DNA of 64,000 nucleotides from Candidatus Multivoradales bacterium (GTDB taxonomy: Bacteria > Acidobacteriota > Thermoanaerobaculia > Multivoradales > J023): contig CBDFNS010000017.1 of the NCBI GenBank assembly GCA_965250305.1, positions 52,836 to 116,835 on the forward strand, written 5' to 3'. The notes below the pieces were generated by a model. It ran no database searches, was not told where the DNA came from, and saw nothing but the letters and a program-made list of their open reading frames with translations. A program made the position numbers and the translations under genes. Shown here piece after piece: positions 4,426 through 63,048 of this stretch. Position 1 is the stretch's first letter. Every line of letters starts with the position of its first letter.

Positions 4426-6903
4426 TCAGGAATCGAGTTCGACAAGAGACAGCGCCACGCCCAAGCGTCGGGTGTCGATGGCCTTTTCGAAATGATCGCT
4501 GGGCACGAAGGTGCCGCTGATCAATGTCACCGACAATTCCTTGCCGAACGTGATCCGGTCGAGGTCGAAGGTGGCCGACCAAGGGGTCTCAGGACTCACG
4601 TTGTCGAGCCGGCCGTCAAACAAGCGCACACTGTTGGCGGTCACCCTTAGGCGGGTACCGCCCGGTGGCGTTTCGACCACGGTTAGGCTCAGGCTCCGCG
4701 GAGGTTGTGCCTGGTTGAACATCAGGTTCAGCTCCGCGGCGCCGTCGGTCCAGCGCGTGCGGCCAGTGGTCCAGCGCTCGATCCCATGGAGCCCGCGACT
4801 CGTCTGGCGAATGAGCGCCAGGGGATTCTGGTCGAGGATCGCCGGGCGCAAATGCACGACGTCGGCCGCCGTCTCGATGGTGAATACCGTGACCTCGTTG
4901 ACACCCGGGCGGAATGACCGAGGATCGACCACGGCCGACCACCGGCTGGGGGCAAACGACCAGGTGCGGGTGACCCCGACGATGCGTCCGTCAACCGCGA
5001 CCGCAAGATCCGTTGGCGTTTGCTGCGTTGCCCCGGCGGCGATCAGCTGGCCGCTGATGTGGGCGGGAACGTAGGGTGAATCGGCGCCCAGCTCGAACGC
5101 GTTGAGCGGCAATTCCATCTCGACAGCGAGCGGCGCCGAGTTGGACACCGGCAGCGCATCTACCCGTTCGCCGATCAACACGCGGTGGCGTCCTATGCGG
5201 AAGAGCTCGCGTGCGGCGCCCGCTCCGAAGCGCGCGTCGCGCTGTGCCAGGGCGGTGGCCTCGCCCGCAGCGAGCTCGGCTGGGCTATGGATCCGCAGTT
5301 GCGAGGGTGCGCGCTGGCGGTGGGGAACGATGGCGACGCGTTGGCGGCCCGGTGTCGCCAGGTCGACCATCGAGCGCCCATCGAGCGCCCACGGCGTCTC
5401 GATACCGGCCAGCTCGAGGAGGGTCGGTACGATATCGATCGTCGCCGTCTGCCGGTCGTCGATTCTCCCTTGGCGTTGGCCCGGCGCTTTGATCAGCAGT
5501 GGCACCGGCACAATAGCGGCAAAGTTGGCTCTCGTGAGGCGGCGGCGCTTGCGGCCGGCAACGAAGCTGGCGCCGTGGTCGGCGGTCACGGCAACGACCG
5601 CGCGGTCCCACAGGCCGGCCGCTTCCAGGCGTGCCACCACCTGCCCGACCACCCGATCGACGTAGCCCACCTGCAGGAGGTGCCGCTGATGGATCTGGGT
5701 GATCGCCCACTCATCGTCGGGCATGGTGTCGCGCTTGAGGCCGACCACGTGACCATCGCCGCTGTAGGTCTGCCCGGACGGCAGGTAGTCGAACGGCGGG
5801 TGGGGAAGCAAGACGTGCAGCAGGTGCAAGACCGGGCCGTCGGTGGGTTGGATCCGGTCGAGGAAATGTTCGATTTGGCTGGTGCGGTCGCCGCGGCCGC
5901 GATCCTTCCAGTCGGAGCGCCAGTCATCACGGTCGGCGAACAGCATCCAATTCTCGGACACCGGTGGCAACCCGTTGGCCCACGCCGACGGCAGTAGCAC
6001 GTGGAGATAGAGGATCGCCAGGTCGGAGGCCAGGGCGCGGGCGCGGTTGGCGAGACCTTCGCTGCGGGTGCCGCATAGGCGTGCCGGACAGATCTGGGTG
6101 ACCGATTCAGAGACGTTCATCTCGTAGTCCGCGCCGAGCAGCGTGAACAAGCTTTGCGGATACTCGGGCGCGATCGGCAGGCGGCCTGGCACGGGCATGT
6201 GGCCGGTAAGGATCGACGGCACGGCGAGCACGGTGTAGTCGCTGACCGTGGCGGAATGGCGGTACCAGGTCGCGCGCGCGGCGAGCGCGGCGAAATGGGG
6301 ATAGTTCGCCGCATCGATGGTACGCGGGCCATCGAGCAGCGAGGTCAAGGGTAGCTCGTCGAAGACGATCAGGACGATGGGTGTGTTCGCATTCGACAGC
6401 GCGGGAGCCGCCACCGCTACTTGGCGTTGGCTGAGCATCTTGGAAACACCCGGCCGGAGCATGAAGAGCAGAGGAAAAACCAAGATTGCCGGTGTCAGGT
6501 AGGCAAGAAACAGGCGGGCCGGCCGCTGGCGGCCGAGGGTGGCGGCGGCAGCTACGCCGATCAGCAAGGCAAGGCCGAGCGCCAGCCACGGATCCGGGTG
6601 GAGCCAGCGGCTGATCGGCGGTAGCGCGATTGCCGCCACCAGCGCGCTGCATAGGATCGTGTGGAGGGTGTGCTGCGCGGTTGGGTGGATGCGGCGGACC
6701 AGGGCCTCGAGCAGGATCAGCGGCGTGGGAACCGCAATTGCTAGGGCGAGGATCAGCAGCGCCACATCGAGTGGCGCGAGCCCACGAACGGCCAGGAACT
6801 CGGGCTTGCCGCCGATCAGCTCGAACAGCGGTTGGGCGACCGCGAAGGCGCACAGCACGCCGAGGTGCAGCGCGTCGGAAAGGAAGGCGTGTGGTTGATG
6901 CAT
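4426..6903 (-). CDS. membrane-anchored sulfatase / alkaline-phosphatase-superfamily transferase (LtaS/MdoB-like) with an extra C-terminal domain
   Basis: The N-terminal part has multiple hydrophobic helices. It is followed by IVLIVFDELPLTSLL, LLPHPPFDYLP and VAVTADHGASF motifs typical of the sulfatase fold. Confidence 0.75.
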   Translation of the reverse strand: MHQPHAFLSDALHLGVLCAFAVAQPLFELIGGKPEFLAVRGLAPLDVALLILALAIAVPTPLILLEALVRRIHPTAQHTLHTILCSALVAAIALPPISRWLHPDPWLALGLALLIGVAAAATLGRQRPARLFLAYLTPAILVFPLLFMLRPGVSKMLSQRQVAVAAPALSNANTPIVLIVFDELPLTSLLDGPRTIDAANYPHFAALAARATWYRHSATVSDYTVLAVPSILTGHMPVPGRLPIAPEYPQSLFTLLGADYEMNVSESVTQICPARLCGTRSEGLANRARALASDLAILYLHVLLPSAWANGLPPVSENWMLFADRDDWRSDWKDRGRGDRTSQIEHFLDRIQPTDGPVLHLLHVLLPHPPFDYLPSGQTYSGDGHVVGLKRDTMPDDEWAITQIHQRHLLQVGYVDRVVGQVVARLEAAGLWDRAVVAVTADHGASFVAGRKRRRLTRANFAAIVPVPLLIKAPGQRQGRIDDRQTATIDIVPTLLELAGIETPWALDGRSMVDLATPGRQRVAIVPHRQRAPSQLRIHSPAELAAGEATALAQRDARFGAGAARELFRIGRHRVLIGERVDALPVSNSAPLAVEMELPLNAFELGADSPYVPAHISGQLIAAGATQQTPTDLAVAVDGRIVGVTRTWSFAPSRWSAVVDPRSFRPGVNEVTVFTIETAADVVHLRPAILDQNPLALIRQTSRGLHGIERWTTGRTRWTDGAAELNLMFNQAQPPRSLSLTVVETPPGGTRLRVTANSVRLFDGRLDNVSPETPWSATFDLDRITFGKELSVTLISGTFVPSDHFEKAIDTRRLGVALSLVELDS

Positions 6904-6914
6904 GCGGGTCTAGA

Positions 6915-8712
6915 CCTAAAACAAGCGCATTTGCCGCCTTCGGTACGATTTGGTGTCGAAGTCGGACTCAGAGTCCCCGGCACCCGCCGCATTACCGCCT
7001 GGCCCCTTCATGTTGAGACCCAGCATGGCTGGCGCGAGGCGATTCGAGCCGCTCTACGTCGCGGAAAGCAACGGTTTTGACCATCGACACGGAGCGCAGA
7101 GACACCTCTCCCATCAAGCCAGTCAAACGTAAGTAATTCCGGTGATGAGGCTAGGTGAAACATCGTCGTTTCAAGAGTTGTGTGCCTTGGAGTAAGAGTT
7201 CCGTCCATTGGTTGACAGCCAGCAAGCGAAAGACCAGTTGCCGGCCGCGACTTAGGATCTGTACCGGCGCCAACATCACTTCGTTCAGGAAACGCCGAAA
7301 CTCCATTTTCAAGATCTTTCTTGCGCCCATCGACCGTGGAAGCAGCAGTCCCGACCAAGCTTTGAGATTCCACGCCAGAGCGGCGATTACCAGATACGCC
7401 CAATTCGCATCGAATTGCTGGACCGGCATCCGGGTCGCTTGCACCCCCGTTCTTGAGCTGCTCGATCAGGTTCTCTTGGTTACATCGCGCGTTGTTCTCG
7501 CGCACCACCGCTGCTGGATCCATCTGATCGGCAGGAATGTTGGTGACGTAGAAGAAGTAGCGAACCTCGTCCTCGAGCCGCAACTGGCCTTCTGTGACGC
7601 GAATCTGCTTGCGCAAAACGATCATGCGGTAGGTCTTCTTGGCCTTCGAGGGCTTGTAACTCATCTCGGCGACGTGCTCCTTCTCCAGCGTCAGCTGGCG
7701 GAAACCTCGCTCCTGAATCACGGCTCTCTTCACCTTCTTTGGTCGGCGCCGTTTCGGCTCCCGAACCGGCCGATCCATCGGCGCCCACTGGGCGTCTGCG
7801 AGTTCCTGGGCCCGCCGGACGAAGCTCGGATGCGCATCGATGCCGAACACGAACTCCACGGCGTCCTCCGTCCAGCGATCGAAATTCGTGGTCAGCGAGA
7901 AGTCGGTATCGCCCCGCAGCCGCACGCGCTCAAAGCCGGCACCCTGGCGAGCCCACTCAACTGCCTTGTCGAGCCACGGAGCAGCGCCATCGTGCGACGG
8001 TCGATTGGCCGGGCGGTTGACCAGGAACAGCGGCTCTTGGCTGTTGGCTAGGCTGACCAGCAACGGCCCGAATCCCCAGCGCCCCTTGTAGGAGATGTCC
8101 ATGCCCTCCTTGCACTCCCCCAGAGTGTCGACGAGGGTGCCGTCGACGTCGATCAGCGCCAAGCGACGCTCCTTCTTGGGCTGGGCTCTCCACACGTTCG
8201 TCCGCGCGATGTTGATCGCCTCCATGAGCTGGGTAACGTCTGTAGCAGCGAAGCGGCGCAAGAAGTCACCAGCCGTCGTGGGATCGGGAATACGGCGGGC
8301 ACCCAAGGCGTCGAGAAACGCACTGTCGTGTCGGCGAGCTTCGAGGTCTTCGAGGCACAAACCGCCGCTGAGAAGGTTGTACGCCAAGGCAAGAATGTGA
8401 TCGGACTCGTGGTAGGGAAGGTGACGCTTGAGCAAGCTCACGTTCTCGTCGATGATCTCGCGAAGATCGACGGCCTTGACGACTTCTTGAATCATTCCGA
8501 GGCCGCCACAATTCGTCGCTTCGATCCGGCCCGAGACCTCGTAGCAGATGTTGCCGGACTCGAGGACCGGGTGTTCTCGGTAGGGCTGCCACCTGCGATC
8601 CAAGCGCTTCTCGATCTGGCTTTGACGACGGTCCAAGCAGATAATATCAACAGAATCAGGCGTTTCGGTCGTTTTAGGCAGAATAAAGGGCATTTAATGT
8701 GCTTGGGTTGGG
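6915..8712 (-). mobile_element. IS1380-family insertion sequence (1798 bp) with imperfect terminal inverted repeats and TCTAGA target duplication
   Basis: The ends are CCTAAAACAAGCGCATT (6915 onward) and the reverse complement of 8696-8712, CCCAACCCAAGCACATT. TCTAGA is present at 6909-6914 and again at 8713-8718. Confidence 0.8.
7151..8693 (-). pseudogene. IS1380-family DDE transposase, frameshifted in a homopolymer
   Basis: The N-terminal 415 aa lie in the 7008-8693 frame (…NQENLIEQLKNG). The expected C-terminus (VQATRMPVQQFDANWAYLVIAALAWNLKAW…) continues in the 7151-7444 frame. The switch occurs at the C5 run at 7444-7448. Confidence 0.8.
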
Positions 8713-55727: not shown

Positions 55728-55758
55728 TAGTTAAGCAAACAGCGTGAAGGAGCCACTG

Positions 55759-56826
55759 ATGACCTCACTCGCAATCAAGTCTTGGCCGTCCGAGCAACCT
55801 CTTGCGTTTACGCCCGAAGTCGCTGCCGCAACGGCGACGATCTACGACCGGGTTCGCGACGTGATTCCGGCGTTGGAGTGGCCGGTGCATGCGCCGTACA
55901 TCGACGCAATCAATCGGCTCAAGCGCGAGCGCAACGCCATCGTGTTGGCCCACAACTACCAGACACCGGAGATTTTCCACGGCGTGGCCGACTTGACCGG
56001 GGATTCACTGGCCTTGGCGCAGCAAGCGGTGGATGCGGAAGCGGATGTGATCGTGCTTTGCGGCGTCCACTTCATGGCCGAGACCGCCAAGTTGCTGAAT
56101 CCCGCCAAGACGGTGTTGATACCCGACCTGCGCGCGGGGTGCTCTTTGGCAGAGTCGATCACCGGTGACGATGTCCGCCTGCTGCGCCAGAAGTATCCGG
56201 GTGTACCCGTCGTTAGCTACGTCAATACCTCCGCCGACGTGAAGGCCGAGACCGATGTTTGCTGTACCTCAGGCAACGCGGTGGAGGTGGTGGAGTCCCT
56301 GGGTACCGATCGCGTGATCTTCCTGCCGGATGAGTACCTTGGTCAGTACGTGGCCCAGCACACCGATGTCGAGCTGATTCTCTGGAAGGGTCATTGCGAG
56401 GTGCACGAGCGTTTCAACGCGCCGCAGATTCGCAGCTACCGCGACAGCCATCCTGGCATTACGGTCTTGGCGCACCCGGAGTGTCCACCGGACGTGCTGG
56501 CGGAGGCCGATTTCGTGGGCTCGACGGCGGGCATGATCAACCATGTGGGCGACAGTGGCGCCAGCAAGGTCATCATGATCACCGAGTGTTCGATGAGCGA
56601 TAACGTGGCCGTGGCCCATCCCGGTGTCGAGTTCATCCGGCCGTGCAATCTCTGTCCACACATGAAGCAGATCACGCTGCCGAAGATTCTGCGTACGCTA
56701 CAAACGATGGAGCATGCCGTCGAGGTGGATCCGGCCTTGATGGACAAGGCGCGGTTGTCGGTGGAGCGCATGCTGGCGGTCGGTCGGGGTCCCACGGGCG
56801 AGACGGCCATGCGGGGCGCGGCGTGA
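55759..56826 (+). CDS. nadA: quinolinate synthase
   Basis: GAAGGAG lies upstream of the ATG. Motifs are ILAHNYQ, FMAETAK, CPHMK. Confidence 0.95.
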
Positions 56827-58505
56827 GCGGTCTCCGGGCGTTGCCGGTCGGCCCACGGGTCGATGAGGTGATCGCCACCGACGTGGTGATCGTCGGGTCT
56901 GGTGTTGCCGGCCTGAGCACGGCGTTGGCGCTCGGCTCCCATTCGGTACAGGTGCTGACCAAGACCGATAGCCTTGCCGGCGGGTCGAGTCTGTGGGCCC
57001 AGGGCGGTATCGCTGCGGCCATGAGCGAGGAAGACTCGGCGGCCGAACACGCGGCCGACACGCTCGCTGCGGGCGCTGGCTTGAGCGACCCTGACGCCGT
57101 TGATCTGTTGACCCGGAGTGCGGGTCGTCACATTCTTCAGCTGGTGGCACGCGGAGCGCGGTTCGATCATGACGACGCCGGGCGTCTGATTCTGGGGCGG
57201 GAAGGTGCACACAGTCACCGCAGGATTCTTCATGCCAACGGTGACGCCACGGGTGCCGAGATGGTGCGAGCGTTGGTCGCGGCGTTGGTCGCGGAAAAGG
57301 AAGCGCGAGAGGACGGTAGCTTGCGGGTGTTCAAGAGCGCGTTCGCCCAGGATTTGGTACTCGACGACGCGGGGCACGTGACGGGCGTCATGGCGCGTCA
57401 TTCAGACGGACGGCTGGTATTGCATGCAGCATCGGCGGTGGTGCTGGCCACGGGTGGAACGGGGCAGCTCTTTAGGCACACGACCAATCCCACCGAGGCG
57501 ACCGGTGATGGTCTGGCGATGGCCGCGCGCGCAGGCGCTCACCTTGCCGATCTGCCCTTCATTCAGTTTCATCCCACGGCGCTCAACGTCGAAGCCGATC
57601 CGCTGCCGCTTCTGACGGAGGCCTTGCGCGGTGAGGGCGCAATCTTGATTGACGACGCCGGGGAGCGGTTCATGCTGGCCGAGCACCCGCTGGCCGAGCT
57701 TGCGCCGCGCGACGTGGTGGCGCGGGCAATTTGGCGTCGGCAGCAGCAAGGCCAACACATCGCGTTGGATGCCACCAAGGCGGTCGGCGAGGCCTTCCCC
57801 ACCCGGTTTCCCACGGTTTGGGCGGCATGCCGGCGGCACGGTATCGACCCTCGGCACGAGCCCATGCCGGTCACCCCGGCCGCGCACTACGCCATGGCCG
57901 GTATCGCCACCGACGATCTTGGTCGGTCGTCGCTACCCGGTCTTTGGGCCTGCGGTGAGGTGTCGGCGACGGGCGTTCACGGGGCCAATCGGCTGGCCAG
58001 CAATTCACTGCTCGAAGCTCTTGTGTTTGGCGCCCGTGTAGCCGAGGATATTGCAGTGCAGGCATCGGCCGATCTCCAAGGTGAGGTCGCCATGACGGTG
58101 CGCGCCCGTGCCGGGCTGGTACGTCGAGAGCCTTGGCTCGGGGAGTCGACGCCGGAGCATCTTGCCGATCTGCATGAACGTGTGCGTACGTTGATGTGGC
58201 GCCAGGTGGGGCTCGAGCGGACCCGGTCCGGTTTGGTGTCGGCCGAAGCGTGGCTCGCGGGCATGGCAGAGCAGCTGCCGGCCGAGCCGAGTGCCACCCA
58301 CAACCTGATTACGATCGGCCGACTCGTCGCAGCGGGCGCTTTGGTCCGGGAAGAAAGTCGGGGCGCGCATTGCCGACTCGACCATCCGCAAAGCCGGCCC
58401 GCGGCCGCCCAACGATCGTTTTGGAAGTATGCCCCTGAGAGTGAGGGCCTGCCGCTGGTACCAGCGCTCGGTGTTCGGTGTGAGACGCAAAGGGAGATTG
58501 CCTGA
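56823..58505 (+). CDS. nadB: L-aspartate oxidase
   Basis: The GTG start overlaps the nadA TGA. The FAD motif is [12 protein letters not shown], and FHPT and RGEGA motifs are also present. Confidence 0.9.
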
Positions 58506-59392
58506 TGACGACCGATCAAGCGGAAACGACGATTCCTACGCTGTTTCCGGTCCAATACGAAGAGCTGCTCCTGGCCGCCCTGCGCGAAGATCTGGGGCGC
58601 GCGGGCGACATTACCAGCAACGCGGTGGTACCGGCCGGCGCTCGCGCCACTGGGGCGATCCGGGCGCGTCGTGCCGGTCGCGTCGCGGGGGTTGAGGTCG
58701 CGGCACGCGTCTTCTCCCTGCTCGACCCCAACGCGACCGTGGTGATCACCGCGCCGGATGGGGCCGATGTCGGCGTCGGCGCGACGATCTTGACCGTCGA
58801 GGGCGATGCGAGGGCGCTGCTCGCGGCCGAGCGAACGGCCCTCAACCTGCTCGGCAGGCTGTGCGGCATTGCCACGACGACCCGCGACCTGGTGGCGAAG
58901 ATCGCGGGGACCGGCGCGCGGGTGGTGGGTACCCGCAAGACGACACCCCTACTGCGCGCGCTCGAGAAACATGCGGTGCGCTGCGGCGGTGGCTCGAGTC
59001 ACCGCTTTGGGCTCGACGACGCGGTATTGATCAAAGACAACCATCGGGCCCTGGCCGGCAGCGCCGCCGAGGCCGTACGTCGGGCTAAGGCAGCAGTCGG
59101 TCACATGGTCAAGATCGAAGTCGAGATCGACAGCCTGGCCGAATTGGCACCAGCGCTCGAGATGGGTGTCGATGCGGTGTTGCTCGACAACATGAACCCC
59201 GACCAACTACGCGAGGCTGTTGCGATCAACAAGGCCGTGGGCGGCGGTCGCACCATCCTCGAAGCCTCTGGCGGCATTACCCCCGACACCGCCCGCGCCA
59301 TGGCCGAGACCGGTGTCGATGTGCTGTCGCTCGGTTGGCTCACCCACAGCGCGCCTGGGCTCGACATCGGTTTAGACTTCGACGCGGGGTAG
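58505..59392 (+). CDS. nadC: nicotinate-nucleotide diphosphorylase (carboxylating)
   Basis: The start forms an ATGA overlap with nadB. Motifs are TRKTTPLLRALEKHAVRCGGG and IEASGGIT. Confidence 0.9.
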   Translation: MTTDQAETTIPTLFPVQYEELLLAALREDLGRAGDITSNAVVPAGARATGAIRARRAGRVAGVEVAARVFSLLDPNATVVITAPDGADVGVGATILTVEGDARALLAAERTALNLLGRLCGIATTTRDLVAKIAGTGARVVGTRKTTPLLRALEKHAVRCGGGSSHRFGLDDAVLIKDNHRALAGSAAEAVRRAKAAVGHMVKIEVEIDSLAELAPALEMGVDAVLLDNMNPDQLREAVAINKAVGGGRTILEASGGITPDTARAMAETGVDVLSLGWLTHSAPGLDIGLDFDAG

Positions 59393-59561: not shown

Positions 59562-61688
59562 CTAGCTGGAAACGTCAGACGGAATCTGAGAAGTCTCTAG
59601 CGCGTCGATGTGGCCGCGAATGGTCTCTGATTCTGGGATGCCCAAGCGATCGGTGTCGCGTAGAGCCGCACGGAGCAACCCGATCGCGGCTCGCTGCTCC
59701 CCTTGCTGAGTCAAGATCAATGCGATTTTTGCCATCGTGATGGCTCGGGAACGGACGTCGCCCAACTGGTCGTAGACGGGTAGCGATTCTTCACGCCTGA
59801 TCCTGAGCGCCTCGTCGAGTTCACCTCGACTAGCGAGAATGTCCGCGATCTTTCCCATTGTGATGGCTCGGGAACGGACGTCGCCCAACTGGTCGTAGAC
59901 GGGTAGCTCTTCTTCACGCCTGATCCTGAGCGCCTCGTCGAGTTCACCTCGACTAGCGAGAATGTCCGCGATCTTTCCCATTGTGATGGCTCGGGAACGG
60001 ACGTCGCCCAACTGGTCGTAGACGGGTAGCTCTTCTTCACGCCTGATCCTGAGCGCCTCGTCGAGTTCACCTCGACTAGCGAGAATGTCCGCGATCTTTC
60101 CCATTGTGATGGCTCGCTCACGGACGTCGCCCAACTGGTCGTAGACGGGTAGCGATTCTTCACGCCTGATCCTGAGCGCCTCGTCGAGTTCACCTCGACT
60201 AGCGAGAATGTCCGCGATCTGTCCCATTGTGATGGCTCGCTCACGGACGTCGCCCAACTGGTCGTAGACGGGTAGCTCTTCTTCACGCCTGATCCTGAGC
60301 GCCTCGTCGAGTTCACCTCGACTAGCGAGAATGTCCGCGATCTTTCCCATTGTGATGGCTCGCTCACGGACGTCGCCCAACTGGTCGTAGACGGGTAGCG
60401 ATTCTTCACGCCTGATCCTGAGCGCCTCGTCGAGTTCACCTCGACTAGCGAGAATGTCCGCGATCTTTCCCATTGTGATGGCTCGCTCACGGACGTCGCC
60501 CAACTGGTCGTAGACGGGTAGCTCTTCTTCACGCCTGATCCTGAGCGCCTCGTCGAGTTCACCTCGACTAGCGAGAATGTCCGCGATCTTTCCCATTGTG
60601 ATGGCTCGGGAACGGACGTCGCCCAACTGGTCGTAGACGGGTAGCTCTTCTTCACGCCTGATCCTGAGCGCCTCGTCGAGTTCACCTCGACTAGCGAGAA
60701 TGTCCGCGATCTTTCCCATTGTGATGGCTCGCTCACGGACGTCGCCCAACTGGTCGTAGACGGGTAGCGATTCTTCACGCCTGATCCTGAGCGCCTCGTC
60801 GAGTTCACCTCGACTAGCGAGAATGTCCGCGATCTGTCCCATTGTGATGGCTCGGGAACGGACGTCGCCCAACTGGTCGTAGATGGGTAGCGATTCCTCG
60901 TACAGGAGCCTAAGTGCCGCGGAAGGATCGCCACGGGTGGCGAGGACCTTGGCGATGTGGCTCATTGCATGCGCTTCGCCTCGGCGATCATCGAGATCTT
61001 TGTAGCCCATTGCCGCGGCTTCGAAGTTCTCGAGCGCTTGGCCGAGGTCTCCCAGATCGGACAATAGTTGGCCGCGCTCGACGAGGAGATCCAGGTCAGC
61101 CGAGTGACTGAGAGATTCCATCTTTTCGAGATGCGAACCGATCTCTCGAATTCGTCGTCGCCGCTGAGGCGCCGGTGCCTCGCCGCGGCTTATCGGTTGG
61201 CCAACAGGCAGCTTCTCGGTCAGCTCGGGGTCACGGCCAAGGTCAAAGACTCCGCTGCGCCACGCCCAAAAGTCGGGCGCTTCGAGTGCAAAGGTCCTGA
61301 CGGCACCGCGAGGAATCCAGAATAGTAACGGTACGGAACAGCTCTCCGCGATCTGTTCGCGATGGTAATTGAAGGCTTGCCATAACTTGTCATGGCCATG
61401 CGGCCAGGACTCGAGACCCACGACGTGGACAGGCGCTTGGTTGTGCGCGGCGAGCGCCAACTGTTGCTCGAAGGCCGCAAAGTCACCTTCGAACTCGCTT
61501 GCATCCACACGGCCACTCCATGCCCACGATCGCTCTGAATGGCGAATCACGCGGTCGCGATAGCTCGAATCGTTGAACTCGAGGATCACCAGGGTGAAGC
61601 CTCGACGCCCTCGAATTAAACGTTCGAGACGTAGGAGTGGGCCCGAGTGCGCCGACTCGAGATCCCAAAGCAAGGCCTCATCGGGCAT
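59562..61688 (-). CDS. TPR-repeat protein: unknown ~190-aa N-terminal domain plus an array of 41-aa TPR_10/12-like repeats
   Basis: The 708-aa ORF overlaps the upstream ATPase gene by 11 nt. Nine near-identical repeats plus two degenerate ones have the unit LPVYDQLGDVR[E/S]RAITMG[K/Q]IADILASRGELDEALRIRREE[E/S]. Confidence 0.8.
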   Translation of the reverse strand: MPDEALLWDLESAHSGPLLRLERLIRGRRGFTLVILEFNDSSYRDRVIRHSERSWAWSGRVDASEFEGDFAAFEQQLALAAHNQAPVHVVGLESWPHGHDKLWQAFNYHREQIAESCSVPLLFWIPRGAVRTFALEAPDFWAWRSGVFDLGRDPELTEKLPVGQPISRGEAPAPQRRRRIREIGSHLEKMESLSHSADLDLLVERGQLLSDLGDLGQALENFEAAAMGYKDLDDRRGEAHAMSHIAKVLATRGDPSAALRLLYEESLPIYDQLGDVRSRAITMGQIADILASRGELDEALRIRREESLPVYDQLGDVRERAITMGKIADILASRGELDEALRIRREEELPVYDQLGDVRSRAITMGKIADILASRGELDEALRIRREEELPVYDQLGDVRERAITMGKIADILASRGELDEALRIRREESLPVYDQLGDVRERAITMGKIADILASRGELDEALRIRREEELPVYDQLGDVRERAITMGQIADILASRGELDEALRIRREESLPVYDQLGDVRERAITMGKIADILASRGELDEALRIRREEELPVYDQLGDVRSRAITMGKIADILASRGELDEALRIRREEELPVYDQLGDVRSRAITMGKIADILASRGELDEALRIRREESLPVYDQLGDVRSRAITMAKIALILTQQGEQRAAIGLLRAALRDTDRLGIPESETIRGHIDALETSQIPSDVSS
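59741..60897 (-). repeat. tandem 123-bp coding repeats, ~9.4 units, nearly identical at the nucleotide level
   Basis: The unit start gtcgcccaactggtcgta recurs at 59757, 59880, 60003 and onward with an exact 123-nt period. Differences are confined to three codons per unit. Confidence 0.95.
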
Positions 61689-63048
61689 TTCGATCCAGAC
61701 CGGCGCCTTGGTAAGCCGCCAAGGTGCGAACCACCGGGTGGCTTCGCCACCAATACGTGTTGTATTCGAGAAGCGCTAGGTTGTAAAGAAGATGCCGAGC
61801 GCGGGCGGAGTTGTGCTCCACCGTTGGTTCATCATCGATCTCGCGAAGTAGGGCATAGTCTTCCGCGTTGAGGAACTGTCGATAGTCGGTGGCAAGGTTG
61901 TGAACAGCCCGTTCCGCAGCGGGTCGGTCGAGACGGTCGTGCTTGGTGTGCTCGAACGTGTACTGAATCAAACGCAACAGGTCTCGCGGATGGCCTCCCG
62001 AGTGCGCGACCAAGTAGTCCGCCGTCTGCAGATCGTCGAACAACTCGGCGGGAGCGCGATGAAAAAGAATTTTGCGCACTGCCTCGGTGCCGGTTTCGTT
62101 CGCGCTGCCATCTCGATTCGAGATCTTGATCATCGGCAACTTGAAGGTCGCGGTATAGCTTTCTTTGAGCGAAATGCCGCCATGGAGAAGTTGGATTGGC
62201 GTGCTGTAGAGAAACATCGCATCGATTAGCTGCAGTTGATGGACGTCCTTGACGAAGAAGGACTCGGCGTCGTCGCCCCGCAGACGATCGGTGCCGTCGA
62301 CCAGGAAGAGAACCCGGCTTCCCAAGTCCCGTTCCAAGCAGGCTTGCTCTGCGGCCTGAATCAACTGGTTGAACGCCAGGGCAAATTCCGAGAAATGGTT
62401 GCGAACAACCCGCCTCAGTTCTTCCTTGTATGTCGAGTTGATCCGAAAGGCCGTCGTCAACTCGGCGAACAGTTTGCTCAGAAAAGGAATACCACCTTCA
62501 GCCTTGGCCCCGGCCTTGACCTCGACGGCGAATTGCCGGGTGGCCTCGTGCTTCTCGACCCGTTCGTCGAACCAGGTGATGAGTCGGCTCAAATGAACCG
62601 GTTCGAGCATGACCCCCCGCTCGTCCAGCTGACGTAAGAGCGCTTCCGCCAGTGCCAAAAGCACATCTTGGTACTGCAAGTTATTGGGGTCAAGTGACTT
62701 CGCCGCGTCGAGGAAGATCGCGAAGAAGAGATCGGGCTGGTCGAGCCTTTGATGAACCCGCCGGAGCTCGGTGCTCTTGCCGCAACCCCGATGACCACAG
62801 AAGAGAACATAGGCGCGTGGTGGCGCACCGCGCAGAGACCAGTCTCGAGAATCGACTCCGAGGCTTCGGTACAGTGGCGTGAAACTGAACTCGCCGCGAG
62901 CAGCCGCGGTGTCGACCCAGCGCTCGTCATCCGGCGCCAATGGCTCGTCGAACTGAAGTCGCTGGTTGACTTCCCAAATGTCTTTCGGTGGATCGGATGA
63001 GCGATGCCGTTCGGAGATCATGGGTTTATTGTAGCGAACCCAATCCAT
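61678..63048 (-). CDS. P-loop NTPase, ORC/Cdc6- or STAND-like AAA ATPase
   Basis: Walker A is FCGHRGCGKST, Walker B is VLFLVDGTDRL and the sensor-2-like motif is AHSGGHPRDLLRLI. The gene is visibly more AT-rich than the neighbouring nad operon. Confidence 0.7.
   Translation of the reverse strand: MDWVRYNKPMISERHRSSDPPKDIWEVNQRLQFDEPLAPDDERWVDTAAARGEFSFTPLYRSLGVDSRDWSLRGAPPRAYVLFCGHRGCGKSTELRRVHQRLDQPDLFFAIFLDAAKSLDPNNLQYQDVLLALAEALLRQLDERGVMLEPVHLSRLITWFDERVEKHEATRQFAVEVKAGAKAEGGIPFLSKLFAELTTAFRINSTYKEELRRVVRNHFSEFALAFNQLIQAAEQACLERDLGSRVLFLVDGTDRLRGDDAESFFVKDVHQLQLIDAMFLYSTPIQLLHGGISLKESYTATFKLPMIKISNRDGSANETGTEAVRKILFHRAPAELFDDLQTADYLVAHSGGHPRDLLRLIQYTFEHTKHDRLDRPAAERAVHNLATDYRQFLNAEDYALLREIDDEPTVEHNSARARHLLYNLALLEYNTYWWRSHPVVRTLAAYQGAGLDRNAR

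What the first reader, a model, noticed from the sequence alone, without database searches (positions are those of the whole stretch)
59741..60897. Nine near-identical 123-bp repeats whose only differences are whole-codon Glu/Ser swaps at two fixed positions and a Lys/Gln change at a third
Across about 1.15 kb, the units are identical at the nucleotide level except at three codons. Position 12 is GAG (Glu) or TCC (Ser). Position 41 is GAG (Glu) or TCG (Ser). Position 19 is AAG (Lys) or CAG (Gln). At positions 12 and 41, all three bases of the codon differ while the surrounding 120 nt are unchanged. This is not what independent point mutation gives. From N- to C-terminus, the pattern for positions 12/19/41 is S-Q-S, E-K-E, S-K-E, E-K-S, E-K-E, E-Q-S, E-K-E, S-K-E, S-K-S. 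This is a combinatorial mosaic reminiscent of repeat-variable residues in coded repeat proteins. Possible explanations are recombination between two or more ancestral unit types with strong homogenisation, selection for charge patterning on the TPR surface, or a phase- or copy-variable locus. Assembly of such repeats is also error-prone, so copy number and order need confirmation.
Basis: seen in the sequence. Interest (0 to 1): 0.65.

Follow-up and report, generated by a model that had tools for sequence, protein, structure and literature searches.

The report
Shuffled near-identical TPR sensor repeats
A bacterial gene carries nine almost identical 41-residue TPR repeats that differ only at a few likely ligand-contact residues. 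This pattern is already known from fungal and bacterial NLR-type immune receptors, so this is a clean example in an unnamed two-gene family, not a new kind of system.

Summary
ORF 59562-61688 (-) encodes a 708-aa protein: an unnamed N-terminal alpha/beta domain, two divergent TPRs, nine 123-bp units (59790-60896), a half-degenerate tenth unit and a short tail. The nine units differ only at codon 2 (GAG/TCG), codon 14 (GAG/TCC), codon 21 (AAG/CAG) and codon 5 of unit 1 (ATC/GTC).

K-mer depths in two independent short-read runs match the assembled copy numbers. Unit order is unverified.

The gene overlaps an upstream P-loop ATPase gene by 11 nt. This pair is conserved in 80 of 82 related loci across many phyla, with no third conserved gene.

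Almost all relatives have DNA-level tandem arrays of 2-12 units. Units are homogenised within genomes (mean 82% nt identity, against 67% between genomes). Copy number differs between close relatives.

Across 19 other arrays the most variable positions are 21, 28, 27, 2 and 14. Ser/Glu at 14 and Lys/Gln at 21 recur in several phyla.

By motif register, 14, 21, 27 and 28 correspond to concave ligand-binding TPR positions.

Best reading: a high-internal-conservation sensor array diversified by unit shuffling plus selection, as in fungal NLRs. An immune role is inferred. It is a new member of a known kind.

The parts
61678..63048 (-). Upstream partner gene: 456-aa P-loop ATPase. A 447-aa product from an internal start is also on record. 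Its stop overlaps the start of the TPR gene by 11 nt.
   Evidence: ORF list. Walker A GHRGCGKST and Walker B-like LFLVDGTD are read from the translation. Pfam AAA_22 scores 28.4 bits (cut-off 27); AAA_16 and NACHT are below cut-off. A homologue lies immediately upstream of the TPR gene in 80 of 82 related loci. At least 1213 homologues exist, all unnamed.
59562..61688 (-). Gene for the 708-aa protein: N-terminal domain plus TPR array.
   Evidence: ORF list. Pfam TPR_12 scores 126 bits against a cut-off of 30.1. The AlphaFold2 model has mean pLDDT 88. Best Foldseek matches are the OGT and LGN/Pins TPR superhelices.
61239..61688 (-). N-terminal alpha/beta domain (aa 1-150), which defines the family. 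It has no Pfam, NCBIfam or PADLOC match.
   Evidence: The model shows five beta strands alternating with helices, pLDDT about 80-90. Pfam finds nothing on 8 members. A profile search finds 3381 cluster representatives at E<=1e-3, always with the domain at the N terminus, in proteins of 115-773 aa among the 150 listed.
60897..61172 (-). Two divergent cap TPRs (aa 173-264) preceding the array.
   Evidence: Pfam TPR_2 aligns aa 201-225 to profile positions 3-27, which fixes the canonical TPR numbering.
59790..60896 (-). Nine near-identical 123-bp (41-aa) units (aa 265-633). Unit k starts at 60896-123(k-1) on the minus strand.
   Evidence: Mean pairwise nt identity is 0.972, the highest of 17 arrays compared.
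59850..60893 (-). The 27 toggling codons. With s the start of a unit, codon 2 is at s-5..s-3 (GAG Glu or TCG Ser), codon 14 at s-41..s-39 (GAG Glu or TCC Ser), and codon 21 at s-62..s-60 (AAG Lys or CAG Gln). Codon 5 of unit 1 (60882-60884) is ATC Ile where the others have GTC Val.
   Evidence: checked against the raw sequence (for example 60855-60857 gga, 60834-60836 ctg, 60891-60893 cga on the + strand).
59667..59789 (-). Tenth unit. Its first 53 nt are identical to a Ser2/Ser14 unit and the rest has diverged. It marks the distal edge of the duplicated block.
59565..59666 (-). C-terminal capping helix and tail (aa 675-708), conserved in orthologues (ALRDAE.L.IPEAE.IR).

Best explanation
The array is the ligand-binding solenoid of a two-gene module: a STAND-like P-loop ATPase plus an N-domain-TPR protein. 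It belongs to the class of 'high internal conservation' (HIC) repeat sensors.

Shown:
- The 123-bp units are kept nearly identical within a genome.
- Unit number changes between relatives.
- Variation within arrays is concentrated at a handful of codons with excess nonsynonymous change.
- In this window those codons occur in all pairwise combinations.

Inferred:
- Unequal crossing-over and gene conversion between misaligned units both homogenise the units and reshuffle them.
- Selection keeps alternative residues at groove-lining positions of helix A: Ser/Glu at 14, Lys/Gln at 21, and 27/28 in relatives. It also keeps alternatives at one helix-B position (2).
- Each new order or number of units therefore gives a new pattern of charge and hydrogen-bonding groups along the binding surface.
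- The whole-codon Ser/Glu difference is an old dimorphism carried from unit to unit. It is not fresh point mutation.

More weakly inferred: ligand binding to the TPR protein is coupled to the partner ATPase, and the module senses non-self (phage or other invader) proteins, as NLR-type receptors do.
For: - Anatomy of the array.
- Four-gamete test positive for all three site pairs, and the variable nucleotides cluster into codons with p about 0.001.
- Concerted evolution. In the Acidobacteriota locus L001, unit 3 (81 nt before the contig end) matches unit 2 exactly. Unit 1 differs from unit 2 only at codons 2, 21, 27 and 28. Yet the L001 unit is only 89/123 nt identical to the window unit. Mean nt identity is 0.82 within arrays and 0.67 between arrays.
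- Copy-number change. The closest orthologues have 0, 0, 0, 1 and at least 2 extra units, against 9 here. L013 and L018 have N-domains 97.4% identical in nt but 12 versus 9 units with different patterns. TRF finds 2-12.4 copies across most of the 80 loci.
- Fixed variable positions. Over 19 other arrays the five most variable of 41 positions are 21, 28, 27, 2 and 14. The chance that the window's three positions all fall in the top five is 10/10660.
- Nonsynonymous/synonymous scores are 10.5/1.0 at position 21, 7.7/0.7 at 2 and 7.5/2.3 at 14. At 22 of the 41 codons nonsynonymous does not exceed synonymous; the highest nonsynonymous scores are at 21, 28, 2, 14 and 27.
- Ser(TCN)/Glu(GAR) at 14 and Lys/Gln at 21 recur in Gammaproteobacteria, Beggiatoa and Spirochaetia arrays.
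- Register. Unit position = TPR position + 15, from the Pfam match and conserved G8/G15/A20 equivalents. That gives 21 = TPR 6, 27/28 = TPR 12/13 and 14 = TPR 33-equivalent. These are concave ligand-binding positions (PMC1261162). Helices A line the groove (PMC5642895).
- The ATPase gene is adjacent in 80 of 82 loci, and there is no third conserved gene.
- The same regime is described for fungal NLR TPRs (PMC4986451) and noted for bacteria (10.1101/2020.01.06.895854; PMC13449251).
Against: - No ligand, phenotype or expression data exist.
- No effector domain was found in either protein, and PADLOC has no model for the ATPase. The immune role therefore rests on analogy.
- The ATPase passes only the AAA_22 threshold. 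NACHT is below cut-off.
A helical-moment analysis was uninformative.
- Position 2 lies in helix B, the convex layer.
- Ser and Glu are both good residues for the first turn of a helix, so position 14 could be a structurally tolerant site and not a contact site.
- With only seven variable nucleotides, a raw synonymous/nonsynonymous count for this window alone is not significant.
- Unit order in the window is unverified.
Confidence: 0.62

Rival explanations
1. A very recent tandem amplification with neutral drift. The few variable positions are simply the least constrained surface sites. No ligand-driven selection or ongoing shuffling is involved.
For: - The window array is the most homogeneous of 17 (0.972), as expected just after amplification.
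- Ser/Glu and Lys/Gln/Arg are conservative for exposed helix positions.
- With seven variable nucleotides, the lack of synonymous change is not significant on its own.
Against: - Neutral drift after amplification should give single-base changes scattered over 123 nt, including synonymous ones. Instead there are two multi-base codon swaps and nothing else.
- All four combinations occur at each site pair, which needs recombination or repeated multi-base mutation.
- The same Ser2/Gln21 first unit followed by Glu2/Lys21 units is seen in L001, although synonymous sites differ at 34 of 123 nt.
- The same positions top the variability ranking in other phyla, with nonsynonymous excess.
Confidence: 0.17
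2. Assembly artefact. Copy number, order or variant combinations were invented by the assembler from a shorter or different array.
For: - Near-identical 123-bp units cannot be phased by short reads.
- Logan contigs break at both array edges.
- One X3 contig (60560-60712) carries a Ser2-Ser14-Lys21 unit that is not in the window.
- The related array in L001 is cut at a contig end.
Against: - Unitig depths in two runs track the assembled copy number of each variant class, r about 1.0.
- Arrays of 9-12 near-identical units occur in related megabase-scale chromosome assemblies (L013, L018).
- The window contig is 367,853 nt.
- Variable codons 2 and 14 lie 36 nt apart, beyond Logan's presumed 31-mer word size (assumed, not on record), so they cannot be phased. 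The X3 contig comes from 2-3x data, so it may be a chimeric graph path.
Confidence: 0.08
3. Code-like modular reader. Each unit reads one element of a linear polymer (nucleic acid or extended peptide) through residues 14 and 21, with 2 and 28 possibly contributing, as PPR, TALE or PUF repeats do. Ser/Glu and Lys/Gln would be the alphabet.
For: - The units are identical scaffolds with two or three toggling residues.
- The best PDB sequence matches are designer PPR proteins (5i9f and others, E=5e-43).
- The toggling residues sit at the start and second or third turn of helix A, the region that carries PPR code residues.
- The two-state residues recur across phyla.
Against: - Pfam assigns TPR_12/TPR_10. 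No PPR family appears among the 14 Pfam families listed for the protein.
- The PPR match is driven by the consensus-like G.LDEAL hairpin and inflated by repetition.
- Positions 14 and 21 align one residue away from PPR positions 35 and 5.
- Structural neighbours (LGN, OGT) bind peptides.
- Relatives show many residues at these sites, not a small alphabet.
- Distant family members carry quite different TPR unit types.
Confidence: 0.06
4. Targeted hypermutation by a diversity-generating retroelement, or a slipped-strand phase-variation locus.
For: - DGRs diversify putative sensors of STAND-type systems in multicellular bacteria (PMC10907252).
- The three variable codons could formally derive from AAG/AAA/AAG template codons.
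Against: - There is no second copy of the unit (template repeat) anywhere in the 64-kb window.
- Dozens of other adenines in the unit are invariant in all nine copies.
- The 123-bp units are in frame, so gain or loss cannot switch the gene off.
Confidence: 0.02

Closest known systems
High-internal-conservation (HIC) TPR, ANK and WD40 repeat domains of fungal NLRs (Podospora HNWD genes; 42-residue TPRs of NB-ARC/TPR proteins; Paoletti 2007, Dyrka 2014 PMC4986451, Marold 2015)
   Same: - Near-identical tandem units of about 42 residues.
- Repeat-number differences between relatives. Fungal TPR motif numbers range from 2 to above 14; here the range is 0-12.
- A few hypervariable positions with nonsynonymous excess in helix regions of the binding face.
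- Evidence of unit shuffling.
- Association with a P-loop NTPase.
   Different: - The unit is 41 residues, not 42.
- The NTPase is a separate, overlapping upstream gene and is not fused.
- NACHT/NB-ARC identity is not established.
- No recognisable death or effector domain. Instead there is an unnamed N-terminal alpha/beta domain.
- Bacterial, and spread over many phyla.
- Variation at position 14 is largely a two-state Ser/Glu toggle.
Bacterial NLR-like proteins with internally conserved WD40/TPR repeats (noted in 10.1101/2020.01.06.895854; Hu 2017 PMC5587647; survey in PMC13449251)
   Same: Bacterial repeat sensors whose units are 80-100% identical and are linked to an ATPase. The same rapid-diversification regime has been proposed for them.
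   Different: Those reports concern single-polypeptide NB-ARC/NACHT-repeat proteins, mostly from Actinobacteria and Cyanobacteria. They give no position-level analysis. The present ATPase + N-domain-TPR pair is not named in the papers I read.
Avs/antiviral STAND sensors with TPR-like domains (PMC13581612)
   Same: A P-loop NTPase works with a TPR-like solenoid that binds a foreign protein.
   Different: - Avs sensors are fused, long and irregular, and they recognise by overall shape.
- They carry effector domains.
- No PADLOC or NCBIfam defence model matches the ATPase here above noise.
LGN/Pins and OGT TPR superhelices
   Same: These are the best structural matches. They are regular superhelices that bind extended peptides in the concave channel, using a ladder of helix-A residues at TPR position 6 or 9. 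Position 21 of the unit equals TPR 6.
   Different: They are eukaryotic scaffolds with divergent repeats (16-19% identity to this protein). They have no concerted evolution and no partner ATPase.
Designer and natural PPR proteins (5i9f, 6een)
   Same: They give the highest sequence scores in the PDB. They have identical scaffolds with two specificity residues per repeat.
   Different: PPR repeats are 35 residues and bind RNA. The variable residues here are offset by one from the code positions. Pfam places this array in TPR families.

Membership tests
TPR superfamily (Pfam TPR_12/TPR_10, 42PR-like) | Sequence match above the curated threshold | tested here: met
   TPR_12 scores 126 bits against 30.1, with 9 stretches. 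TPR_10 scores 80.7 against 27.5.
TPR superfamily (Pfam TPR_12/TPR_10, 42PR-like) | Antiparallel helix pairs stacked into a superhelix | tested here: met
   The AF2 model has pLDDT 88. Helix A is unit positions 12-28 and helix B is 32-9'. Foldseek top hits are OGT and LGN TPR domains, prob 1.00.
TPR superfamily (Pfam TPR_12/TPR_10, 42PR-like) | Repeat length of 34 or 42 residues | tested here: not met
   The unit is 41 residues (123 bp) here and in the closest clade. Other clades have 40 or 42 residues. This is a length variant and no reason to exclude it from the superfamily.
HIC repeat sensor of NLR type (Dyrka 2014) | Units more than about 85% identical to each other | tested here: met
   97% by TRF. 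Mean pairwise nt identity is 0.972.
HIC repeat sensor of NLR type (Dyrka 2014) | Repeat-number polymorphism | tested here: met
   Between relatives, orthologues carry 0, 1, at least 2, or 9 extra units, and L013/L018 carry 12 versus 9 with 97.4% identical N-domains. Variation within a species could not be tested, because no close relatives were found.
HIC repeat sensor of NLR type (Dyrka 2014) | Few hypervariable positions under diversifying selection | tested here: met
   The top five of 41 positions in 19 other arrays are 21, 28, 27, 2 and 14. Those codons show nonsynonymous excess. No formal codon-model test was run.
HIC repeat sensor of NLR type (Dyrka 2014) | Variable positions lie on the concave binding face | tested here: inconclusive
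   By register, 21 = TPR 6, 27/28 = TPR 12/13 and 14 = TPR 33-equivalent, all concave positions (PMC1261162).
HIC repeat sensor of NLR type (Dyrka 2014) | Repeats fused C-terminally to a NACHT or NB-ARC domain, with an N-terminal effector | tested here: not met
   The ATPase is a separate adjacent gene. No effector domain was found in either protein.
STAND NTPase (the partner protein) | Walker A and B motifs plus NACHT/NB-ARC-type helical and winged-helix modules | tested here: inconclusive
   Walker A GHRGCGKST and an hhhhD motif are present in the sequence. AAA_22 just passes. AAA_16 (25.1 against 32.6) and NACHT (22.7 against 26.7) fall below threshold. Relatives carry weak NACHT, ATPase_2, NPHP3_N and KAP hits. 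No PDB relative is found by sequence.
PPR / coded nucleic-acid-binding repeats | 35-residue PPR motif with specificity residues at positions 5 and 35 | tested here: not met
   No PPR family appears among the Pfam hits. In the phmmer alignment to designer PPRs, the variable residues align to positions 34 and 6.
DGR-diversified variable region | Nearby template repeat and reverse transcriptase, with adenine-specific differences | tested here: not met
   There is no other copy of the unit in the window. Most adenines are invariant.
Known anti-phage defence system (PADLOC / NCBIfam models) | Match to a curated defence-protein model | tested here: not met
   PADLOC finds only a generic 'TPR' model for the TPR protein and nothing for the ATPase. 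NCBIfam DS41_1 scores 17 bits against a cut-off of 370.

The most novel reading that the evidence does not exclude
The Ser/Glu (position 14) and Lys/Gln (position 21) toggles would be an ancient two-state 'alphabet' preserved inside arrays in several phyla, despite continual homogenisation of everything around them. The order of unit types along the solenoid would then encode specificity for an extended, periodic ligand. The result would be a bacterial, germ-line, combinatorial receptor whose specificity is rewritten by unit shuffling and could be read or engineered repeat by repeat.
Probability: 0.1. Interest if true: 0.8.

Novelty: new member of a known kind. Interest (0 to 1): 0.45.

Why it matters
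HIC repeat sensors are thought to let NLR-type receptors change specificity quickly, but almost all position-level evidence comes from fungi. This window is an unusually clean bacterial case: nine units, four variable codons and no synonymous noise. It belongs to a large unnamed family, with about 3,400 N-domain clusters and at least 1,200 ATPase homologues, in which sensor and NTPase are separate proteins. The same two or three helix-A positions toggle across phyla. That makes the specificity hypothesis directly testable by swapping Ser/Glu and Lys/Gln or reordering units. It also flags a candidate two-gene sensing module that current defence-system catalogues do not list. There is a practical point too: such arrays break short-read assemblies, so the family is probably under-represented and truncated in metagenome catalogues.

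Tried and rejected
- Checking unit order with public reads. Only Logan short-read unitigs at 2-4x exist for this sample and they break at the array edges. I used k-mer depth instead.
- An X3 contig with a Ser-Ser-Lys unit that is absent from the window. I judged it uninformative, because codons 2 and 14 lie 36 nt apart, beyond Logan's presumed 31-mer word size (assumed, not on record), and depth is low.
- Looking up the window's own contig by its ATPase product. It is not on record.
- Searching JGI metagenome contigs for close relatives, to see population variation. The best match was 33% identity, so it gave no such data.
- Measuring concave versus convex geometry. The structure tool returns no coordinates, and a helical hydrophobic/variability-moment analysis was ambiguous. 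I used the Pfam register plus the literature instead.
- Identifying the N-terminal domain. It has no Pfam hit. I mistakenly folded it as a single sequence instead of using the alignment, and the model was too poor to search (pLDDT 48). The full-length Foldseek search is dominated by the TPR part.
- Looking for a third conserved gene or effector. Clustering all ORFs of 83 loci found only the two genes plus generic two-component regulators in a few loci.
- DGR, phase variation and PPR membership were considered and rejected (see rivals and membership tests).
- NCBIfam NsdA_fam_reg exceeds its cut-off (95 against 75 bits), but through one 62-residue stretch of a 432-position profile inflated by repeats. 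I do not treat it as membership.
- The promoter/terminator scan found nothing above shuffled expectation.
Full report
**What is in the sequence**

The region lies inside one ORF on the minus strand, 59562-61688, encoding 708 aa. TRF reports a single array at 59722-60891 with period 123, 9.5 copies, 97% matches and no indels.

Cut in the reading frame, nine full units occupy 59790-60896 (aa 265-633). A tenth unit (59667-59789) is identical for its first 53 nt and then diverges into a capping repeat.

The unit reads E[E/S]LPVYDQLGDVR[E/S]RAITMG[K/Q]IADILASRGELDEALRIRRE. Among the nine units the only nucleotide differences are:
- codon 2: GAG or TCG
- codon 14: GAG or TCC
- codon 21: AAG or CAG
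- codon 5 of unit 1: ATC where the others have GTC

Two details need correcting. GAG/TCG differs at two bases, not three. The Ile/Val codon in the first unit was missed.

Seven variable nucleotides packed into four codons, one of them fully replaced, has p about 0.001 under random placement.

**Is the array real?**

Public data for this organism are four runs from one sample, kept only as Logan contigs of short reads at 2-4x depth. These break at 59766 and 60854, as expected at the edges of a repeat, so unit order cannot be checked.

Composition can be checked. For each repeat-internal unitig I counted how often its 31-mers occur in the window and compared that with its reported depth. The relation is linear in both usable runs: r about 1.0, 2.93 per copy in X1 (flank depths 2.5 and 4.0) and 1.97 per copy in X2 (flank depths 2.0-3.2). 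This supports roughly nine to ten units and the assembled numbers of Ser14, Ser14-Lys21 and Glu14-Lys21 units.

The window's contig is 367,853 nt. Comparable arrays of 9-12 near-identical units occur in related megabase-scale chromosome assemblies. I put an assembly artefact at under 10%.

**The gene and its partner**

Pfam assigns the repeats to TPR_12 (126 bits) and TPR_10. An AlphaFold2 model of the whole protein has mean pLDDT 88. It shows these parts:
- an N-terminal alpha/beta domain with five strands (aa about 30-150)
- a disordered linker
- an uninterrupted helical solenoid, in which unit positions 12-28 form helix A and 32-9' form helix B

The closest solved folds are the OGT and LGN/Pins TPR superhelices, which bind extended peptides in their concave channel.

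The N-terminal domain matches no Pfam family. A profile of it finds 3381 cluster representatives at E<=1e-3, always N-terminal, in proteins of 115-773 aa among the 150 listed.

Immediately upstream, overlapping by 11 nt, is a 456-aa P-loop ATPase gene (61678-63048). It has a Walker A motif, GHRGCGKST. Its Pfam matches are weak: AAA_22 just above threshold, AAA_16 and NACHT below. It has at least 1213 unnamed homologues.

A homologue of this ATPase sits directly upstream of the TPR gene in 80 of 82 related loci from Acidobacteriota, Gammaproteobacteria, Spirochaetia, Chloroflexi, Cyanobacteria and others. Clustering all neighbouring ORFs found no third conserved gene.

The flanking genes differ between genomes: nadABC here, acetyl-CoA synthetases in L001, mutS2 in L002. 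The pair therefore behaves as a self-contained, mobile cassette. NadC similarity places the window in Acidobacteriota.

The closest orthologues (55-58% identity in the N-domain) have the same N-domain, cap repeats and C-terminal tail. They carry zero (P0001, P0002, P0003), one (P0004) or at least two (P0006, cut at a contig end) of the extra units, against nine here.

In P0006's locus L001 the units are nearly identical to one another at the nucleotide level. Unit 3 (81 nt before the contig end) matches unit 2 exactly, and unit 1 differs from unit 2 only at codons 2, 21, 27 and 28. Yet the L001 unit is only 89/123 nt identical to the window's unit. Even so, the first unit is Ser2/Gln21 and the next is Glu2/Lys21 in both genomes.

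Over 17 arrays, mean nucleotide identity is 0.82 within arrays and 0.67 between arrays. The window's array is the most homogeneous, at 0.972. TRF finds DNA-level arrays of period 123 (120 or 126 in other clades), with 2-12.4 copies, in most of the 80 loci.

Two gammaproteobacterial genomes have N-domains 97.4% identical in nucleotides but 12 versus 9 units with different residue patterns. This is concerted evolution with repeat-number change.

The variable positions are fixed across the family. Averaging within-array variability over 19 arrays other than the window, the five most variable of 41 positions are 21, 28, 27, 2 and 14. The chance that the window's three sites all fall in the top five is 10/10660.

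Nonsynonymous/synonymous difference scores at these codons:

| Position | Nonsynonymous | Synonymous |
|---|---|---|
| 21 | 10.5 | 1.0 |
| 28 | 9.6 | 0.9 |
| 2 | 7.7 | 0.7 |
| 14 | 7.5 | 2.3 |

At 22 of the 41 codons nonsynonymous does not exceed synonymous.

The Ser(TCN)/Glu(GAR) pair at position 14 and the Lys/Gln pair at 21 recur in arrays from Gammaproteobacteria, Beggiatoa and Spirochaetia. Position 2 is mostly Glu/Gln elsewhere and Glu/Ser in the window's clade. More distant family members carry other TPR unit types, each again internally conserved. Their variable residues fall at canonical TPR positions 2, 5, 9 and 12.

**Where the toggling residues sit**

Pfam TPR_2 aligns aa 201-225 of the first cap repeat to profile positions 3-27. 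That gives G206 = G8, G213 = G15 and A218 = A20.

The equivalents in the unit are A23, G30 and A35, so unit position = canonical position + 15. This gives:
- position 21 = TPR 6
- positions 27 and 28 = TPR 12 and 13
- position 14 = the residue two before TPR position 1, equivalent to TPR 33

Magliery and Regan (PMC1261162) showed that positions 2, 5, 9, 12, 13, 33 and 34 are the hypervariable, concave-face positions. They also showed that 2, 5, 6, 9, 12 and 13 contact ligand in HOP, with position 6 touching the peptide backbone. Helices A line the groove and helices B the convex face (PMC5642895).

Positions 14, 21 and 28 are spaced i, i+7, i+14, which places them on one stripe of helix A.

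So two of the window's three toggles, and four of the family's top five, map to the classical binding face. Position 2 is in helix B.

This is inference from register.

**Mechanism**

The three sites occur in all four pairwise combinations. Because two of them need two or three base changes, recurrent mutation is implausible. Exchange between misaligned units (unequal crossing-over or gene conversion) is the economical explanation.

The same process explains three other observations:
- the absence of any synonymous difference
- the change in copy number between relatives
- the partial tenth unit at the array edge

The whole-codon Ser/Glu difference is then an old dimorphism that travels from unit to unit while its surroundings are homogenised. 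Its retention in several lineages argues for selection.

This is the regime described for fungal NLR repeats. It features high internal conservation, repeat-number polymorphism (TPR motif numbers from 2 to above 14) and three positively selected TPR positions on the concave face (PMC4986451). The same regime has been proposed for bacterial NLR-like proteins (10.1101/2020.01.06.895854) and has been surveyed across all domains of life (PMC13449251).

I therefore read the array as a rapidly re-patternable ligand-binding surface working with the partner ATPase. That it senses invaders is analogy. No effector domain, defence-model match or phenotype supports it.

**Alternatives**

- Neutral drift after a recent amplification does not explain the multi-base swaps, the recombinant combinations or the cross-phylum recurrence.
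- A DGR is excluded because there is no template copy and the other adenines are invariant.
- Frame-shifting phase variation is impossible with in-frame 123-bp units.
But that match rests on the consensus-like G.LDEAL hairpin. The toggling residues align one position off the PPR code residues. Pfam and fold searches both say TPR. I keep it as the low-probability novel reading.

**Verdict**

The phenomenon is known. This is a new and very clean member of the HIC repeat-sensor kind, in an uncharacterised split ATPase/TPR family. Interest is moderate.

Noticed in passing
window 55744-59392 (+): A nadA-nadB-nadC operon (quinolinate synthase, L-aspartate oxidase, nicotinate-nucleotide pyrophosphorylase) ends 170 nt from the 3' end of the TPR gene, in convergent orientation. 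The listed nadB ORF (620 aa, GTG at 56643) overlaps nadA by 184 nt, so its true start is probably further downstream. NadC's best named relatives are Acidobacteriota/Thermoanaerobaculia MAGs at 63-71% identity.
   Followed up: partly
window 59717-60934 (-): A 405-aa ORF in another frame runs through the whole array (repeating ...YPSTTSWATSV.EPSQWERSRTFSLVEVNSTRRSGSGVK...). It is open only because one stop-free unit is repeated nine times. It is a by-product of the repeat and probably not a gene.
   Followed up: no
L001 8001-9017 (Acidobacteriota MAG GCA_034211275.1, contig end): The orthologous gene is truncated by the end of a 21.8-kb contig exactly inside its near-identical units. Short-read assemblies seem to break in these arrays, so database proteins of this family are often partial and their lengths unreliable.
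   Followed up: partly
L044, L047, L064, L037, L039, L051 (arrays about 6400-7700 in locus coordinates): Distant members of the same ATPase + N-domain family carry quite different TPR unit types (for example DRNGEAASLGNLGNAYYSLGQYQQAINFHQQSLEI.REIG and GMASSWGLLGDIERNRGNWDEAERLYRQ). Each type is again internally near-identical. This suggests that whole sensor arrays have been replaced during the family's history.
   Followed up: partly
window 60560-60712, run X3: One Logan contig carries TCG at codon 2 together with TCC at codon 14 and AAG at codon 21. This Ser-Ser-Lys unit is not present in the assembled array. It may be a chimeric graph path at 2-3x depth, or real heterogeneity in the population.
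   Followed up: partly
L017 9910-10163, L020 11534-11926, L022 9321-9503, L065 3651-4031, L035 3645-4314: Other tandem repeats (periods 64-75 and 295 nt, 81-97% matches) lie a few kb from the cassette in several related loci. Their nature was not examined.
   Followed up: no
window aa 306-633 of the TPR protein (units 2-9): Every internal unit has at least one Glu at positions 2 or 14: Ser-Glu three times, Glu-Ser three times, Glu-Glu twice, never Ser-Ser. Ser-Ser occurs only in the first and the degenerate last unit. The sample is too small to test. Ser/Glu is also the classic pair of a phosphorylatable residue and its phosphomimetic.
   Followed up: no
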